Shown here: piece after piece, positions 35,856 through 41,461 of the stretch
Layout: the number at the start of each line of letters is the position of its first letter
Position numbering within the stretch: position 1 is the first letter of the stretch
Source: a phage
Assembly (NCBI GenBank): GCA_025829515.1
Contig: GCA_025829515.1_4865.1
Direction: 5' to 3' (one strand)
Length of the DNA: 64,000 nt
The notes under the pieces: generated by a model
Databases searched by the model: none
Told to the model about the DNA's origin: nothing
What the model saw: the letters and a program-made list of their open reading frames with translations, nothing else
Position numbers and translations under genes: made by a program

Positions 35856-36281
35856 ATGAACAATATAGCATTTACGAAAGACGTTGGCTTACTTCTGAAC
35901 AACACCATCATCGCTGGCACTAATAACGCTAACTGGGAAGCGTTAGCACAGCGTCTCAAAGACAAACCGGTGAAAATCGTGGTGACGAGCGAGTTACCGT
36001 TAAACGGCACAATGGCAAACTGTGGTCCAATGTTTGCGGCGTTTAACATCGACTACGATTGCGGCTCCGCTTTCTTACAAAACGCCGCGTTACGTAGCCG
36101 TCTGTACAGCTGGCGTTTGCTGGGTCCGGTAAGTAAGGCCGCTGGCCAGATGGTTAACCAGGGCACACCGATGTCGGGTGTAGAAGACCAGACTATCGCC
36201 GTTGTCGTTTCTCGTGCAAGCGGCCAGCTTAACTTTGCAATCTGCTACGCGTATCAGGAGGAGGAGGAAGCCTGTGTTTAG
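35856..36281 (+). CDS. hypothetical protein (141 aa)
   Basis: ORF. Confidence 0.5.
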   Translation: MNNIAFTKDVGLLLNNTIIAGTNNANWEALAQRLKDKPVKIVVTSELPLNGTMANCGPMFAAFNIDYDCGSAFLQNAALRSRLYSWRLLGPVSKAAGQMVNQGTPMSGVEDQTIAVVVSRASGQLNFAICYAYQEEEEACV

Positions 36282-37143
36282 TATCGTTCAGCAAGTTCAA
36301 GCGGTCGAAGAGTGGTTTCGCAAGACGGATATCTACCAACAGAAAGCGACTGAGCGTCAGTTGGTAAAGTATTACGTCACACTCGGCAGGATCTCGGCAG
36401 GTGTCGATGAACTGGATAACTTAAAGGTGGCTGCCGGTATCGGTGAATCGATTTGGACATTTGCCGCGCTGCTACACCTCGGTCCACATTCTAACCTCGG
36501 TGATATTGTCGTTCCGTTGAGTGATGCGGTGTCTCTTCGTACTACAACTGGCACGAAAGAAGGACAACTGCAGCAGCTCATGTTAATTGCAGTCGAGACC
36601 GTTAGTGTTGTTTTGCGTGAACCAGAACCTGACCCTAAGAGTTATAGCGCGCTGCTTCGTAAGTTGATGAGACAGTATCAATTGTTGGCGTGTCGTTGCG
36701 GGCTGGAGTTTGACCGTGTTGTTTTTAATGGCCATCGTAAGCTCGTTAAGACGCCTGAAACGACAAGCACGCTCGGCGAACTGCTCAAAGCATCGTTGCC
36801 GTTATCCGACGACGATTTGGCGAAACAAACCTATCAGGCGGTGTACAAAACCAACGAGTCAGTCCACGACATTATTGTAAATTGCCTTTTGGCCACATCG
36901 AATGATTTACAAACCGAACATAACGGTGAAGTCGCCATGCCGCAGCTATTGCTGCGGATGGAGGACATTATGAACGAAAAGCTGCAAGAGCTTCTCAAGG
37001 CGCACTTTGAACCGTGGATAGTAAGAAAACAAATGTTGTTCAATCGTAACCCTCGCGTTGATGTTAAGTTCGATGGTAACGCTGTAAACATTTGTGCGAA
37101 CGACGATTTAAGAGACATTTTGAATTTATTGAAAGGAAAATAA
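36274..37143 (+). CDS. hypothetical protein (289 aa, GTG start)
   Basis: Very strong AGGAGGAGGAGG RBS before GTG 36274. Confidence 0.55.
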
Positions 37144-37145
37144 TT

Positions 37146-38183
37146 GTGAAACAGTATCTTGAGATGATGCAGAACATTCTGGACGAGGGTCATGTTAAGG
37201 GCGATCGTACTGGGACAGGGACGCTCTCCGTCTTTGGTCGCCAAATGCGTTTTGATTTGCGCAAAGGTTTCCCGTTAGTCACGACTAAAAAACTCCACCT
37301 GCGTTCTATTATTCACGAACTGCTGTGGTTCCTTAGTGGCGATACCAACACCAAATATCTGGAAGATAACGGGGTCACAATCTGGCGTGAGTGGCAAGAT
37401 GAGAACGGTGACCTAGGTGAAATCTATGGTGCGCAATGGAGACGTTGGAAAGATGTGAAACTGGTGCCTAAGAAAAATGCAGCTTTACTCGAGAAACTGC
37501 AAGATGCAGGATACGTGGATTATGGCGACGCGGACGACGGTTCACAAATGTTCGATGCGCGTGTACTTCTGAAACTACACGACCAAATCTCTAAGGTGAT
37601 TGACCAACTGCGTAACGATCCTGACAGTCGCCGTATTATTGTCAGCGCATGGAATGTGGGTGAGTTGGATCAAATGGCGTTAGCGCCGTGTCATGCGTTC
37701 TTTCAGTTCTACACTCGTGAGCTGTCTATCGACGAGCGTCTTGATTGGTTTGAAAAGAACCTTCCAGATCAATTTAACGATTCCCGCTTTAGTAATGAAG
37801 CTGTTGCAGACGACGCAGTGTTCCACGTTGAGATGGACGCACTTGAAATACCTCGCCGCATTCTTTCATGTCAGCTCTATCAACGCAGTGCGGATTTTTT
37901 CCTCGGCGTGCCGTTCAACATCGCGTCTTACGCATTACTCGTGCACATGGTTGCCCAGCAGGTTAACATGGTGCCGGGCGATTTCATTTGGACGGGCGGT
38001 GACACACATCTCTACTCTAATCATCTGGAGCAGGCCAAGCTGCAGCTGACGCGTGAGCCGTTACCTTTACCGAAACTGATCATCAAGCGTAAACCGGAAT
38101 CTATCTTCGATTATAAATTCGAAGATTTTGAGATCGTTGGGTATCAGTCTCATGAAAAAATATCTGCGCCTGTCGCTATCTAA
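37146..38183 (+). CDS. thyA: thymidylate synthase (ThyA family) with two in-frame insertions
   Basis: Near-identity over long stretches to E. coli ThyA as recalled ([89 protein letters not shown]); GTG start. Confidence 0.95.
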
Positions 38184-38195
38184 TTAGGAGCGTTT

Positions 38196-38732
38196 ATGGT
38201 TGACAACATCGTTCCCTTCAAGCCTAAAGCGGTGGTTGCTACGGACGAACCGCCGTTTATTCCTGTCAATGGACAGAAGATCATCGAGTTTCCAGACGAA
38301 CATCGTGGACAACTGCACGTTCCACAACCGGACGGGACGATGAAAGCTATCGGTTTCCCGATAGCTGAACAAGAATGGTGGACGCTTCTGGCCATCCAGA
38401 TGATGTCGCGTGGTCTGGGTGTGTCTACGGAACCTGTCGTTCGCATTAATACCGACCCGTATATCCACGAACAAGGCAGTTGGATGGAACGACGTCGGAC
38501 AATGGAGATGCAGATTAGCAAAGAAACGCTTTTGCAAATCGCAGAATCCACACCTTTCATCCTGACCTCATCTTTTAACGGGGATATGGATGAAGACCTC
38601 TACATGCACCTTTCAGGCTTAGCAGCTGAGCACCGTATTGCAGAAGAAGAGCCTATCTATACCGAAGCGATGATTATCCATCCGACCGGCTTAGAAGGTA
38701 ATACCTTTAAACTGATTTGGGTGGAGCTATGA
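38196..38732 (+). CDS. hypothetical protein (178 aa)
   Basis: AGGAG RBS. Confidence 0.55.
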   Translation: MVDNIVPFKPKAVVATDEPPFIPVNGQKIIEFPDEHRGQLHVPQPDGTMKAIGFPIAEQEWWTLLAIQMMSRGLGVSTEPVVRINTDPYIHEQGSWMERRRTMEMQISKETLLQIAESTPFILTSSFNGDMDEDLYMHLSGLAAEHRIAEEEPIYTEAMIIHPTGLEGNTFKLIWVEL

Positions 38733-40504: not shown

Positions 40505-41461
40505 ATGGGCGAACGTTTCATTATCCAGATTCCGTATAACGTTATTGTTGAACCTAACCAGTACCTGGCACAGATTAATGAGCTTCTGGCTGGATTCTGC
40601 CAACGTCAGTTTGTTAAACCGTGGTCCTTTGAGAAACTGTACACCCTGTGCGTGAACAGTGAAACCGGTCACACTTACGTCGAAGGTAAAGTCTTCACAG
40701 GCGACCAGCGTTTGGAAATAAATGATTTCGAAATGCCGTGGACGTTGGAAGGTGTCGAGTATCGTGGTACGGTTGATCGCCCGCGTTACGTACCTTTGTA
40801 CACCATCCCACAATGTATTACTAACGTTATGGGTTGGTCTAAAGCGCGTGGTATTCTGGATAACGGCGTCTGGTATAGCCAAGCCACCAAACTCTACGAA
40901 GAAGACGGTGAAGCAGCAACCGGCATCAGCAAAACCAAAGAACGTCTTATCATGGACGGCCTAGGCGATGCAATGGTGGTACTGGTTAACGTCAACGCCT
41001 TGGTAGGTATGCCATCCAAGTTGGTTTCTGTCATGCTGTCCCGTGGGCGCGCACGTCTCGAAAAGAACGTTCCATTTGGCGATGCCCATCGCTTGTTCCA
41101 CAAAATGCGATTGGCCTTCACGTTGATGCACGATATTGTCTATCAAGGGGCCGATCGTCGTAACCAGCACCAGGGGACTTATCGTTTTACCGAGAGTGAC
41201 GACGATCTGATTATCGAATACGAAGAGCAGATGACCGTGGCACTCTATTACATGGAAGCACTGGCGCGAGCGTACAACATTACCCTGGAACAGTGCTTCT
41301 CACTGGCTTGGGATGAAATCAAAGACCGTAAGGGTTTCCTGAACGCGGACGGTATCTTCGTTAAAGAAGCAGACATGTCCGCTGCTGAAATCGAAGTAAA
41401 CGGTTCCCTTACTGTAAAAGATGAGGCGCTTACCGATGGCGAAGAAACTGTTCACGGTTGA
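40505..41461 (+). CDS. hypothetical protein (318 aa)
   Basis: AAGGAG RBS. Confidence 0.6.
   Translation: MGERFIIQIPYNVIVEPNQYLAQINELLAGFCQRQFVKPWSFEKLYTLCVNSETGHTYVEGKVFTGDQRLEINDFEMPWTLEGVEYRGTVDRPRYVPLYTIPQCITNVMGWSKARGILDNGVWYSQATKLYEEDGEAATGISKTKERLIMDGLGDAMVVLVNVNALVGMPSKLVSVMLSRGRARLEKNVPFGDAHRLFHKMRLAFTLMHDIVYQGADRRNQHQGTYRFTESDDDLIIEYEEQMTVALYYMEALARAYNITLEQCFSLAWDEIKDRKGFLNADGIFVKEADMSAAEIEVNGSLTVKDEALTDGEETVHG

What the first reader, a model, noticed from the sequence alone, without database searches (positions are those of the whole stretch)
37146..38183. Thymidylate synthase nearly host-like in its core but with two in-frame insertions
Seen in sequence: long stretches are almost identical to E. 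coli ThyA as I recall it. Two extra segments interrupt this: about 30 aa after RRWKD ([49 protein letters not shown]) and about 45 aa between FQFY and LSCQLYQRS. Both are in frame with no stops, so they are protein insertions, not introns. Inference: phage-specific surface insertions, perhaps for interaction with other nucleotide-metabolism enzymes or for evading host regulation. The high core identity suggests relatively recent acquisition from an enterobacterial host.
Basis: partly seen in the sequence, partly recalled or inferred. Interest (0 to 1): 0.45.

Follow-up and report, generated by a model that had tools for sequence, protein, structure and literature searches.

The report
Jumbo-phage thymidylate synthase with two inserts
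This is the thymidylate synthase gene of an SPN3US-like Salmonella jumbo phage; its two extra protein segments are real, folded and old features shared by many large-phage versions of the enzyme, not a sign of recent theft from the host, and their function is still unknown.

Summary
The ORF at 37146-38183 (+) encodes a 345-aa ThyA with every catalytic residue intact. It is 76.5% identical to E. coli ThyA over the 264 alignable positions. Two in-frame insertions interrupt it: net +36 aa at E. coli loop 102-109, and net +45 aa in the 154-158 beta-hairpin.

The window is a Seoulvirus (Chimalliviridae), 99.6% identical in nucleotide sequence to Salmonella phage SPLA1a, where the gene is already annotated.

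"Recent host acquisition" is not supported:
- Nucleotide identity to E. coli thyA is about 72%.
- In a weakly supported tree, the phage genes group outside Enterobacterales plus Aeromonas.
- Both inserts occur in all 118 aligned close homologues except one that lacks insert 1; all named ones, and most of the rest, sit on jumbo-phage-sized contigs.
- Insert 2 is detectably homologous in a phiKZ-like phage.
- 87 of the 149 best 50%-identity cluster representatives from the metagenome library carry a hairpin insert.
- None of the 80 closest bacterial ThyAs, and none of the 60 PDB thymidylate synthases listed, has either insert.

The inserts are predicted to be folded. They are hypervariable between genera, under purifying selection within Seoulvirus, and swapped as cassettes between phages. 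Both insertion sites border the dimer interface, so a role in subunit pairing or communication is my best guess (unproven, about 0.3). This is a modestly interesting, apparently undescribed variant of a very well-known enzyme.

The parts
37146..38183 (+). thyA coding sequence (345 aa plus TAA), GTG start
   Evidence: ORF and sequence. PF00303 at 382 bits. E. coli ThyA at E=2e-126. Annotated as thymidylate synthase in SPLA1a, SPN3US and others. ATG at the same codon in SPLA3 and Lh1B.
37132..37139 (+). Shine-Dalgarno-like AAAGGAAA, about 7-9 nt upstream of the GTG; the upstream gene's stop TAA lies at 37141-37143
   Evidence: Read directly from the sequence.
37146..37448 (+). Core block 1 (aa 1-101), equivalent to E. 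coli 1-101; contains R21, E58, W80, W83 and Y94
   Evidence: 76/101 identical to E. coli. Catalytic residues checked.
37449..37580 (+). Insert 1 (aa 102-145; 44 aa replacing E. coli 102-109, net +36); predicted strand-helix-strand-strand module
   Evidence: Alignments. Model secondary structure E101-108, H112-120, E124-130, E137-145, with 10-residue block mean pLDDT 76-90. Anchor residues L118, G122, Y123 and G127 are conserved. The same motif (W.DtrIV...GY...v.R.IDQ) appears in many metagenomic ThyAs.
37581..37712 (+). Core block 2 (aa 146-189), equivalent to E. coli 110-153; contains R162/R163 (=R126/R127) and the P-C182-H active-site motif (Cys codon 37689-37691)
   Evidence: 38/44 identical to E. 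coli. Residue check. Sequence.
37713..37862 (+). Insert 2 (aa 190-239; 50 aa replacing the E. coli 154-158 hairpin, net +45); predicted bundle of four short helices
   Evidence: Alignments. Helices 195-205, 207-212, 217-221 and 223-232, with block mean pLDDT 84-95. E197, P236 and R238 are invariant and R198 nearly so. An insert-only HMM finds the phiKZ-like insert at E=1.6e-5 and none of 69 bacterial controls.
37863..38180 (+). Core block 3 (aa 240-345), equivalent to E. coli 159-264; contains R247, S248, D250, N258, H288, Y290 and the C-terminal APVAI
   Evidence: 83/106 identical to E. coli. Residue check.

Best explanation
Shown: this is a working-type ThyA (dUMP + methylene-tetrahydrofolate -> dTMP) of an SPN3US-like chimallivirus. 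Its catalytic core is canonical and should operate as in E. coli ThyA, as an obligate homodimer with shared active sites.

Shown: the gene belongs to a large, mostly phage-borne ThyA lineage with two folded modules spliced into surface turns. One is a roughly 40-aa strand-helix-hairpin module in the loop equivalent to E. coli 102-109. The other is a roughly 50-aa helical module in the beta-hairpin equivalent to E. coli 154-158.

Shown: the modules are old. Insert 2 is shared with phiKZ-like phages. Both modules evolve much faster than the core, and they are exchanged between phages as cassettes. I infer that this happens by homologous recombination that uses the highly conserved core as homology arms.

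Inferred (probability about 0.3): both insertion points border the dimer interface. The hairpin links two interface strands. It lies at the same end of the sheet as R126/R127, which reach into the partner's active site. The modules therefore most likely enlarge or modify the subunit interface, giving phage-specific pairing, stability or inter-subunit communication, rather than changing the chemistry.
For: Identity and chemistry:
- PF00303 scores 382 bits, E. coli ThyA matches at E=2e-126, and the match to phrog_160 (thymidylate synthase) is strong.
- R21, E58, W80, W83, Y94, R126, R127, C146, H147, R166, S167, D169, N177, H207 and Y209 are all conserved.

Lineage:
- All 118 aligned homologues carry insert 2, and all but P0046 carry insert 1. 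All named members, and most of the others, are on 220-245 kb phage contigs.
- The phiKZ-like phage 30-1 ThyA (488 aa) has both inserts with the motif TRELTVDER...[14 protein letters not shown]45, pEt-SU and Aeromonas PS1 have an insertion at the insert-2 site with the ER and P-x motifs.
- The insert-2-only HMM hits phiKZ-like at E=1.6e-5 and gives 21 hits at E<1e-3, with none of 69 bacterial controls hit.
- 87 of 149 top cluster representatives carry a hairpin insert, and the four contexts examined are phage-like.
- The best structural match is the 201phi2-1 thymidylate synthase at TMq 0.85, against 0.66 for E. coli.

Folded and constrained:
- 10-residue block mean pLDDT is 76-95 across the inserts.
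- Pooled pN/pS within Seoulvirus is 0.45 for insert 1 and 0.14 for insert 2, against 0.13 for the core.

Fast and modular:
- Mean top-residue frequency is 0.35 and 0.43 in the inserts, against 0.83-0.90 in the core.
- Cassette swaps: window versus P0023 gives core 93%, insert 1 98%, insert 2 38%. P0023 versus Caitlin gives core 77%, insert 2 80%. P0028 versus Machina gives core 96%, insert 1 30%, insert 2 98%.

Interface location:
- The human TS insertion 146-153 is at the insert-1 site, and V158 of that loop lies on the dimer interface.
- Human L198 and L212, on the two strands flanking the hairpin, are interface probes (PMC9536839).
- The residue mapping uses the established equivalences hTS C195/R215/R175 = E. 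coli C146/R166/R126.
Against: - No dimer model or coordinates were available, so contacts of the inserts with the partner subunit, or with each other, are not shown.
- Independent reassortment of the two inserts, and their absence in some relatives, argue against a strict shared requirement. P0046 and PCH45 lack insert 1. pEa_SNUABM_14 has only a short insert 2.
- Hypervariability fits weak constraint as well as it fits a specific role.
- The hairpin also tolerates low-complexity insertions in unrelated ThyAs (P0155 and P0189).
- Insert 1 homology beyond the close clade rests on motif and position only.
- The model has low confidence in parts of the core (residues 50-100 and 170-182).
Confidence: 0.7

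Rival explanations
1. The inserts are tolerated decorations at two permissive surface turns. They persist through structural entrenchment and drift and have no specific function.
For: - They are hypervariable in sequence and length.
- They are missing or minimal in some relatives (P0046, PCH45, pEa_SNUABM_14).
- The same hairpin carries low-complexity insertions in other lineages.
- The insert-1 site is a known indel hot-spot; the human enzyme has 8 extra residues there.
Against: - Anchor residues (E197, R198, P236, R238; G122, Y123, G127) are conserved across dozens of 50%-identity clusters.
- The inserts are predicted to be well ordered.
- pN/pS is below 1 within Seoulvirus.
- They have been retained from Seoulvirus to Phikzvirus.
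Confidence: 0.25
2. The inserts are docking surfaces for other phage nucleotide-metabolism proteins, forming a dNTP-synthesis complex.
For: - thyA sits between two MazG-like pyrophosphatase genes. The gene directly upstream (ORF 36202-37143) matches phrog_10269 with a weak MazG match, and 40505-41461 matches phrog_7855.
- A MazG-like (PRA-PH) gene also lies upstream of an insert-bearing thyA on an unrelated phage contig.
- From general knowledge, T4 Td takes part in a dNTP synthetase complex.
Against: - Cassettes are swapped independently of the rest of the gene and genome, which would break a specific partner interface unless the partner co-varies.
- No interaction data exist.
- Synteny of metabolic genes is weak evidence for physical contact.
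Confidence: 0.15
3. The inserts are arms-race surfaces. They diversify to escape a host factor, such as a defence sensor, an inhibitor or regulation that acts on ThyA.
For: - Between-genus divergence is extreme next to a nearly frozen core.
- Alternative cassettes are exchanged horizontally.
- pSal-SNUABM-04, a Machinavirus on Salmonella, carries the Seoulvirus-type insert 1 (73% identical to the window), whereas Erwinia phage Machina does not (30%).
Against: - pN/pS is 0.14-0.45 within Seoulvirus, which is not positive selection.
- Co-infection opportunity alone explains the host-correlated swap.
- My paper searches, which were not aimed at defence systems, turned up no ThyA-targeting defence.
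Confidence: 0.1
4. The inserts are relics of selfish elements (mini-inteins, in-frame introns or MITE-like palindromic elements) inserted after a recent capture of the host thyA.
For: - thyA genes are classic homes for introns and inteins.
- The related Aeromonas phage PS1 ThyA appears to carry a large intein-like insertion at the catalytic Cys.
Against: - There is no Rfam hit and no flanking repeats.
- There are no other copies in the window or in phage genomes.
- At 44 and 50 aa they are far too short for an intein, and they lack the Cys/Ser...His-Asn splice motifs (read from the sequence).
- GC content is the same as in the core.
- Nucleotide identity to host thyA is about 72%.
Confidence: 0.02

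Closest known systems
E. coli / Enterobacterales ThyA (EC 2.1.1.45; PDB 2TSC, 1TYS and others)
   Same: Same fold and the same catalytic residues. Core identity is 76.5% to E. coli and 72-76% to other Enterobacterales ThyAs. It is expected to be an obligate homodimer with shared active sites.
   Different: The window protein has 81 extra residues in two modules. None of the 80 closest bacterial ThyAs and none of the 60 solved thymidylate synthase sequences listed has either module. Nucleotide identity is only about 72%. The phage clade falls outside the Enterobacterales plus Aeromonas group in the tree.
Chimallivirus thymidylate synthases (phiKZ-like phage 30-1, 201phi2-1, SPN3US gp, Erwinia jumbo phages)
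   Same: These are members of the same subfamily. They carry insert 2 with the motif T.EL..ER...P.R.LSC, and in many cases insert 1 too. The 201phi2-1 predicted structure is the best structural match, at TMq 0.85. A TMS-GFP fusion is reported to be excluded from the phage nucleus in PhiPA3 infections.
   Different: The phiKZ-like and 201phi2-1 enzymes are longer (488 and 457 aa). The phiKZ-like one has a third, large insertion at the small-domain site, and its core is only 55% identical to the window.
Human thymidylate synthase insertions (residues 115-126 and 146-153)
   Same: The human 146-153 insertion is at the same loop as insert 1. That loop touches the dimer interface and has been implicated in inter-subunit dynamics and dUMP-binding cooperativity (PMC9536839).
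   Different: The human insertion is 8 residues and flexible, whereas insert 1 is a net gain of 36 residues with predicted secondary structure. The human enzyme has nothing at the hairpin where insert 2 sits.
Lactobacillus casei-type ThyA small-domain insert (about 50 aa) and T4 Td
   Same: These are precedents for lineage-specific insertions that leave ThyA catalysis intact. This statement rests on my own knowledge of those sequences.
   Different: The L. casei insert lies between the equivalents of E. coli W83 and G89, a different site. That site is used by P0046 and the phiKZ-like enzyme but not by the window protein. As I recall its sequence, T4 Td (286 aa) has no hairpin insert, and it is only about 36-39% identical to the window.

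Membership tests
Thymidylate synthase ThyA (Pfam PF00303, EC 2.1.1.45) | Significant match to the family profile above the curated threshold | tested here: met
   PF00303 scores 382.4 bits against a cut-off of 24.3, and the match is split in two by insert 2. phrog_160 (thymidylate synthase) matches at E=3.7e-119.
Thymidylate synthase ThyA (Pfam PF00303, EC 2.1.1.45) | Catalytic nucleophile Cys in a P-C-H motif | tested here: met
   P181-C182-H183, codons 37686-37694.
Thymidylate synthase ThyA (Pfam PF00303, EC 2.1.1.45) | Four arginines that bind the dUMP phosphate (E. coli R21, R166, and R126'/R127' from the partner subunit) | tested here: met
   R21, R247, R162 and R163 are all present and invariant in the 119-sequence alignment.
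Thymidylate synthase ThyA (Pfam PF00303, EC 2.1.1.45) | Asn at E. coli position 177 (uracil specificity), plus E58, W80, W83, Y94, D169, H207, Y209 and the C-terminal carboxylate tail | tested here: met
   N258 and all the listed residues are conserved, and the C-terminus is APVAI as in E. coli.
Thymidylate synthase ThyA (Pfam PF00303, EC 2.1.1.45) | dTMP synthase activity and homodimeric assembly | not testable with these tools
   This needs an enzyme assay, delta-thyA complementation, and a dimer structure or model.
dCMP hydroxymethylase (T4 gp42 type) of the thymidylate synthase superfamily | Asp in place of Asn177 (cytosine specificity) | tested here: not met
   The residue is Asn (N258). 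T4-type dCMP hydroxymethylase appears only as a distant structural hit, at TMq 0.45.
Intein | A module of roughly 130 aa or more, with an N-terminal Cys/Ser and a C-terminal His-Asn followed by Cys/Ser/Thr | tested here: not met
   The inserts are 44 and 50 aa. They begin KDV... and TRE... and end ...KLH and ...RRI. By contrast, Aeromonas PS1 ThyA carries a long insertion of intein-like size and ends at the catalytic Cys.
Group I/II intron or other structured RNA element | Match to an intron covariance model, or interruption of the reading frame | tested here: not met
   There are no Rfam matches at E<=1 in 36800-38500. The frame is open throughout, and the insert codons show pN/pS below 1.
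Chimallivirus / large-phage ThyA subfamily with hairpin insert (informal, defined here) | At least 20 extra residues between the catalytic Cys and the R-S-x-D motif, with the ER motif near the start and P-x-R just before L-S-C | tested here: met
   The Cys182-to-R247 spacing is 65, against 20 in E. coli. E197-R198 and P236-x-R238 are present. The motif is shared by 87 of 149 cluster representatives and by the phiKZ-like enzyme.

The most novel reading that the evidence does not exclude
The two modules form a phage-specific extension of the ThyA dimer interface. This extension would make the viral enzyme orthogonal to the 77%-identical host ThyA by preventing mixed dimers. It could also add inter-subunit regulation or a recognition surface. 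On this reading, the hypervariable, recombining cassettes reflect selection at a phage-host or phage-phage interface. That would define a previously undescribed structural class of thymidylate synthase, widespread in large phages.
Probability: 0.2. Interest if true: 0.55.

Novelty: new variant of a known kind. Interest (0 to 1): 0.3.

Why it matters
ThyA is one of the most conserved and best-studied enzymes and is a drug target. The turn between its two central interface strands is normally of fixed length. A large family of viral ThyAs carries a folded module exactly there, plus a second module at the loop that in the human enzyme is linked to subunit cooperativity. This family is therefore a natural experiment on how the dimer interface can be elaborated.

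For phage biology, the inserts are a handy lineage marker for chimallivirus-type ThyA. They are also a clean example of cassette exchange driven by conserved flanks. Finally, the result corrects an easy misreading: high identity to a host enzyme was taken as recent capture.

The practical impact is modest unless a function for the inserts is found.

Tried and rejected
- **Host gene conversion.** I compared nucleotide identity to E. coli thyA in 45-nt bins for eight phage alleles. No bin exceeded 89% and most were 56-80%, so this was rejected. The blocky divergence among Seoulvirus alleles is phage-to-phage mosaicism.
- **Low dS in the inserts.** The lower dS within Seoulvirus inserts at first looked like special conservation. 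It is better explained by the same mosaic block structure.
- **Insert-2 profile search.** A search of the 5.8-billion-protein database with an insert-2-only alignment returned nothing significant. A 50-column profile cannot reach significance at that database size, so the search was uninformative.
- **Insert peptides against phage genomes.** tblastn found only thyA genes of the close clade, so there is no stand-alone or mobile copy.
- **Structure libraries.** The afdb50 fold library was unavailable. Model coordinates are not exposed, so I could not measure insert-to-insert or insert-to-interface distances.
- **Large site-1 insertions.** A Pfam scan of the roughly 280-aa insertions in some metagenomic ThyAs gave no domain, apart from one sub-threshold homing-endonuclease-like NUMOD match.
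- **Cluster names.** A name look-up for the metagenomic representatives gave none.
- **Literature.** Four full-text searches found no description of these inserts.
Full report
**What is there.** The window matches Salmonella phage SPLA1a at 99.6% nucleotide identity over the gene, and SPN3US-type phages at 91-96%. These phages belong to the genus Seoulvirus, family Chimalliviridae.

The ORF runs from GTG 37146 to TAA 38183 on the + strand and encodes 345 aa. AAAGGAAA sits just upstream of the start. The N-terminus MKQYLE matches E. coli ThyA. SPLA3 and Lh1B have ATG at the same codon. The SPN3US record starts 7 codons later.

**Checking the observation.** Pfam PF00303 matches at 382 bits, in two stretches. 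E. coli ThyA structures are the best PDB hits (E=2e-126), and they align as three separate stretches: 1-102, 146-191 and 240-345.

A global alignment gives 202/264 identical residues, or 76.5%. The E. coli sequence was confirmed from a genome locus. Block identities are 75%, 86% and 78%, with identical runs of up to 19 aa.

- Insert 1 is aa 102-145 (37449-37580). It replaces eight E. coli residues, a net gain of 36.
- Insert 2 is aa 190-239 (37713-37862). It replaces the five-residue turn VADGK, a net gain of 45.

**It is a real ThyA.** All residues I checked are conserved: R21, E58, W80, W83, Y94, R126/R127, C146, H147, R166, S167, D169, N177, H207, Y209 and the C-terminal tail. Asn at the position of E. 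coli N177 excludes a dCMP-hydroxymethylase reading.

**The inserts are protein, not selfish DNA or RNA.**
- There is no Rfam match at E<=1.
- There are no flanking direct or terminal inverted repeats.
- GC content is the same as in the core, and there are no other copies in the window.
- The insert peptides hit only thyA genes among 50,697 phage records.
- Their size and end residues exclude inteins.

An AlphaFold2 model built with 119 homologues has mean pLDDT 80.8.
- Insert 1 is predicted as strand 101-108, helix 112-120, and strands 124-130 and 137-145.
- Insert 2 is predicted as four short helices between residues 195 and 232.
- Mean pLDDT of the 10-residue blocks across the inserts is 76-95.
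- Confidence is oddly lower in parts of the core (residues 50-100 and 170-182).

No solved structure covers the inserts. TMq is 0.66 to E. coli TS, and all 60 PDB sequence hits listed are split at the insert sites.

**Distribution.** I aligned the window protein with 118 of the 120 closest proteins in the 5.8-billion-protein database; all 120 are 59-98% identical. All 118 carry insert 2, and all but P0046 carry insert 1. All named members, and most of the others, sit on 220-245 kb phage contigs; some of those contigs are labelled as Salmonella or Shigella assemblies.

In GenBank phages the same form occurs in Seoulvirus, Machinavirus, Wellingtonvirus, Derbicusvirus and other Erwinia, Cronobacter and Salmonella jumbo phages.

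More distant chimalliviruses also carry insertions:
- A phiKZ-like ThyA (488 aa) has both inserts with recognisable motifs (D.R/K-V-I/V-P; GY/GF; TRELTVDER...[11 protein letters not shown]), plus a third insertion.
- PCH45, pEt-SU and Aeromonas PS1 have an insertion at the insert-2 site with the ER and P-x motifs.
- pEa_SNUABM_14 has insert 1 and a short insert 2.

An HMM built only from insert 2 of the SPN3US/Erwinia clade finds the phiKZ-like insert at the right place, at E=1.6e-5. It finds 21 proteins at E<1e-3 and none of 69 bacterial ThyAs. The equivalent insert-1 HMM is weak, so distant homology of insert 1 rests on motif and position only.

The best structural neighbour in BFVD is the 201phi2-1 thymidylate synthase at TMq 0.85. 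This means most insert residues superpose.

An exhaustive phmmer search of 1.84 billion cluster representatives found 16,386 ThyA-like proteins. Among the best 149 other than the close relative:
- 87 have at least 20 extra residues between the catalytic Cys and R166 (median net gain 39), with the shared pattern FQFYt.eLs..ER...v[11 protein letters not shown].
- Of 119 that my motif-anchor parsing could resolve, 47 carry both a small insert 1 and insert 2, 17 carry insert 2 only, 12 carry a small insert 1 only, and 14 carry neither. The remaining 29 carry a large insertion (more than 85 extra aa) at the insert-1 site, 17 of them together with insert 2.
- These counts rest on motif-anchor parsing and are approximate.

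Four such proteins that I looked up lie on phage-like contigs. One contig is 370 kb and encodes topoisomerase, T4-type RNA ligase and DHFR. Another has ribonucleotide reductase and a MazG-like gene next to thyA.

**Origin.** E. coli thyA is only 71.7% identical at the nucleotide level, across the three core pieces. No 45-nt bin of any of eight phage alleles exceeds 89%.

A scan of one genome per bacterial species returned 80 ThyAs, none with either insert: 75 are 262-265 aa and five are 270 or 277 aa. The best are Enterobacterales at 72-76%, then Aeromonas at 72% and Burkholderiales at 66-70%.

I built an NJ tree on the 264 core columns:
- The SPN3US/Erwinia phage ThyAs form one clade (bootstrap 50).
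- That clade lies outside the Enterobacterales plus Aeromonas clade (bootstrap 70).
- The sister relationship between the two has weak support (26).
- The phiKZ-like and PCH45 enzymes sit on long branches elsewhere.

An old Enterobacterales-like or gammaproteobacterial source for the core is therefore plausible. A recent capture is not supported. The high identity mainly reflects how slowly ThyA evolves.

One loose end remains. The window core is closer to E. coli (77%) than to the phiKZ-like core (55%), although insert 2 is shared. I attribute this to a fast phiKZ-like branch. Ancient core replacement cannot be excluded without better phylogenetics.

**Evolutionary behaviour of the inserts.** Among 34 sequences non-redundant at 90% identity, the mean frequency of the commonest residue is 0.35 in insert 1 and 0.43 in insert 2. 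It is 0.83-0.90 in the core blocks. A few anchors are conserved: L118, G122, Y123 and G127 in insert 1, and E197, R198, W201, N205, D231, P236 and R238 in insert 2.

Within Seoulvirus, pooled pN/pS is 0.45 for insert 1, 0.14 for insert 2 and 0.13 for the core. This indicates purifying selection on the inserts in the short term.

The gene is a mosaic of blocks among Seoulvirus alleles, and the inserts reassort as cassettes:
- Window versus the Lh1B-like P0023: core 93%, insert 1 98%, insert 2 38%.
- P0023 versus Erwinia phage Caitlin: core 77%, insert 2 80%.
- pSal-SNUABM-04-like P0028 versus Machina: core 96%, insert 2 98%, insert 1 30%. Its insert 1 is 73% identical to the window's.

I infer that the very conserved core segments act as homology arms for recombination between co-infecting phages.

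**How it most likely works.** The catalytic mechanism should be that of E. coli ThyA (shown by residue conservation; activity not tested).

For the inserts, the firmest structural statement is where they are spliced. The numbering below uses the standard equivalences hTS R50/C195/R215/R175 = E. coli R21/C146/R166/R126.

- Insert 1 occupies the loop where human TS has its 146-153 insertion. In the human enzyme V158 of that loop lies on the dimer interface. The authors implicate the three human insertions, including that loop, in inter-subunit dynamics and dUMP-binding cooperativity (PMC9536839).
- Insert 2 is in the turn joining the strands that carry hTS L198 and L212. The same paper lists both as interface-sheet probes.
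- From the antiparallel topology (inference from the known fold), this turn is at the same end of the sheet as R126/R127, which reach into the partner's active site.

I therefore favour a role in the subunit interface: pairing specificity against the 77%-identical host enzyme, stability, or communication. I put this at about 0.3.

The rivals are neutral decoration (about 0.25), partner docking (about 0.15), an arms-race surface (about 0.1) and selfish-element relics (about 0.02). No dimer model could be made here.

**Context and literature.** thyA lies between two MazG-like pyrophosphatase genes. The gene directly upstream (ORF 36202-37143) matches phrog_10269 with a weak MazG match. The gene at 40505-41461 matches phrog_7855.

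A thymidylate synthase-GFP fusion is reported to be excluded from the phage nucleus in PhiPA3 infections. Knock-down of the phiKZ thymidylate synthase gene had a weak effect in an antisense screen. Traces of SPN3US thymidylate synthase were seen in one mutant virion preparation and judged non-specific. Four full-text searches found no description of these insertions.

**Verdict.** This is a known, annotated gene of a known phage group. The inserts are real and define an apparently undescribed, widespread viral variant of ThyA. The function of the inserts is unknown, and recent host capture is not supported.

Noticed in passing
L006:46-2304 (Aeromonas phage PS1, NC_070998.1): The PS1 ThyA is 752 aa. 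A long insertion of about 350 aa sits exactly at the catalytic Cys (...LTP | CFVAGTPVL...VVHNYATHN | CHFSF...). It has the size and end residues of an intein whose +1 residue would be the active-site Cys. The protein also has a hairpin insert.
   Followed up: no
window 37731-37865 vs L011 (Escherichia phage Lh1B) and P0057 (Erwinia phage Caitlin): There is a clean cassette replacement. Lh1B is 91-100% identical in nucleotide sequence to the window on both sides of insert 2, but only 36-58% identical inside it. Its insert 2 is 80% identical in protein sequence to that of an Erwinia phage whose core is only 77% identical.
   Followed up: yes
window 37866-37910 (gene nt 721-765): Two sharply different alleles exist among Seoulvirus phages for the segment encoding the [19 protein letters not shown] region. 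The alternative allele reads LYARSQDFFLGTPFN. Nucleotide identity is 58-62% over 45 nt although the protein is nearly the same. This is a small mosaic block from a divergent source.
   Followed up: partly
window 36202-37143 and 40505-41461: thyA is bracketed by two MazG-like nucleotide pyrophosphatase genes (phrog_10269 with a weak MazG match, and phrog_7855 at E=3.6e-127). A PRA-PH/MazG-like gene also sits upstream of an insert-bearing thyA on an unrelated 127-kb phage contig (L095), separated from it only by a 33-aa ORF.
   Followed up: partly
L001:8022-9038 (SPN3US_0229, JN641803.1): The SPN3US reference record, and several others, start thyA at a downstream ATG. This removes the conserved N-terminal residues MKQYLEM. 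The GTG, which is ATG in SPLA3 and Lh1B, at the position of window 37146 is the likely true start.
   Followed up: yes
GenBank LR535901, LR535903-LR535908, LR535911-LR535913, LR535917 (SPFM phages): In these records the thyA match breaks into 13-15 BLAST pieces, or into frame-shifted tblastn pieces. This suggests many indel errors in those assemblies rather than biology.
   Followed up: no
P0121, P0130, P0147, P0160, P0171, P0177, P0203, P0213 (metagenomic ThyA representatives): Many metagenomic ThyAs have a roughly 250-270-aa insertion at the insert-1 site (R99-to-R126 spacing of 277-299 instead of 27) with no Pfam domain. One shorter case (P0140) has a sub-threshold homing-endonuclease NUMOD-like match. 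These could be read-through introns with endonuclease genes, or a genuine inserted domain.
   Followed up: partly
P0046 (363 aa; alignment A1): One member of the SPN3US/Erwinia clade lacks insert 1. Instead it carries a 53-aa insertion at the small-domain site (between the equivalents of E. coli W83 and G89). The L. casei enzyme and the phiKZ-like enzyme use the same site.
   Followed up: no
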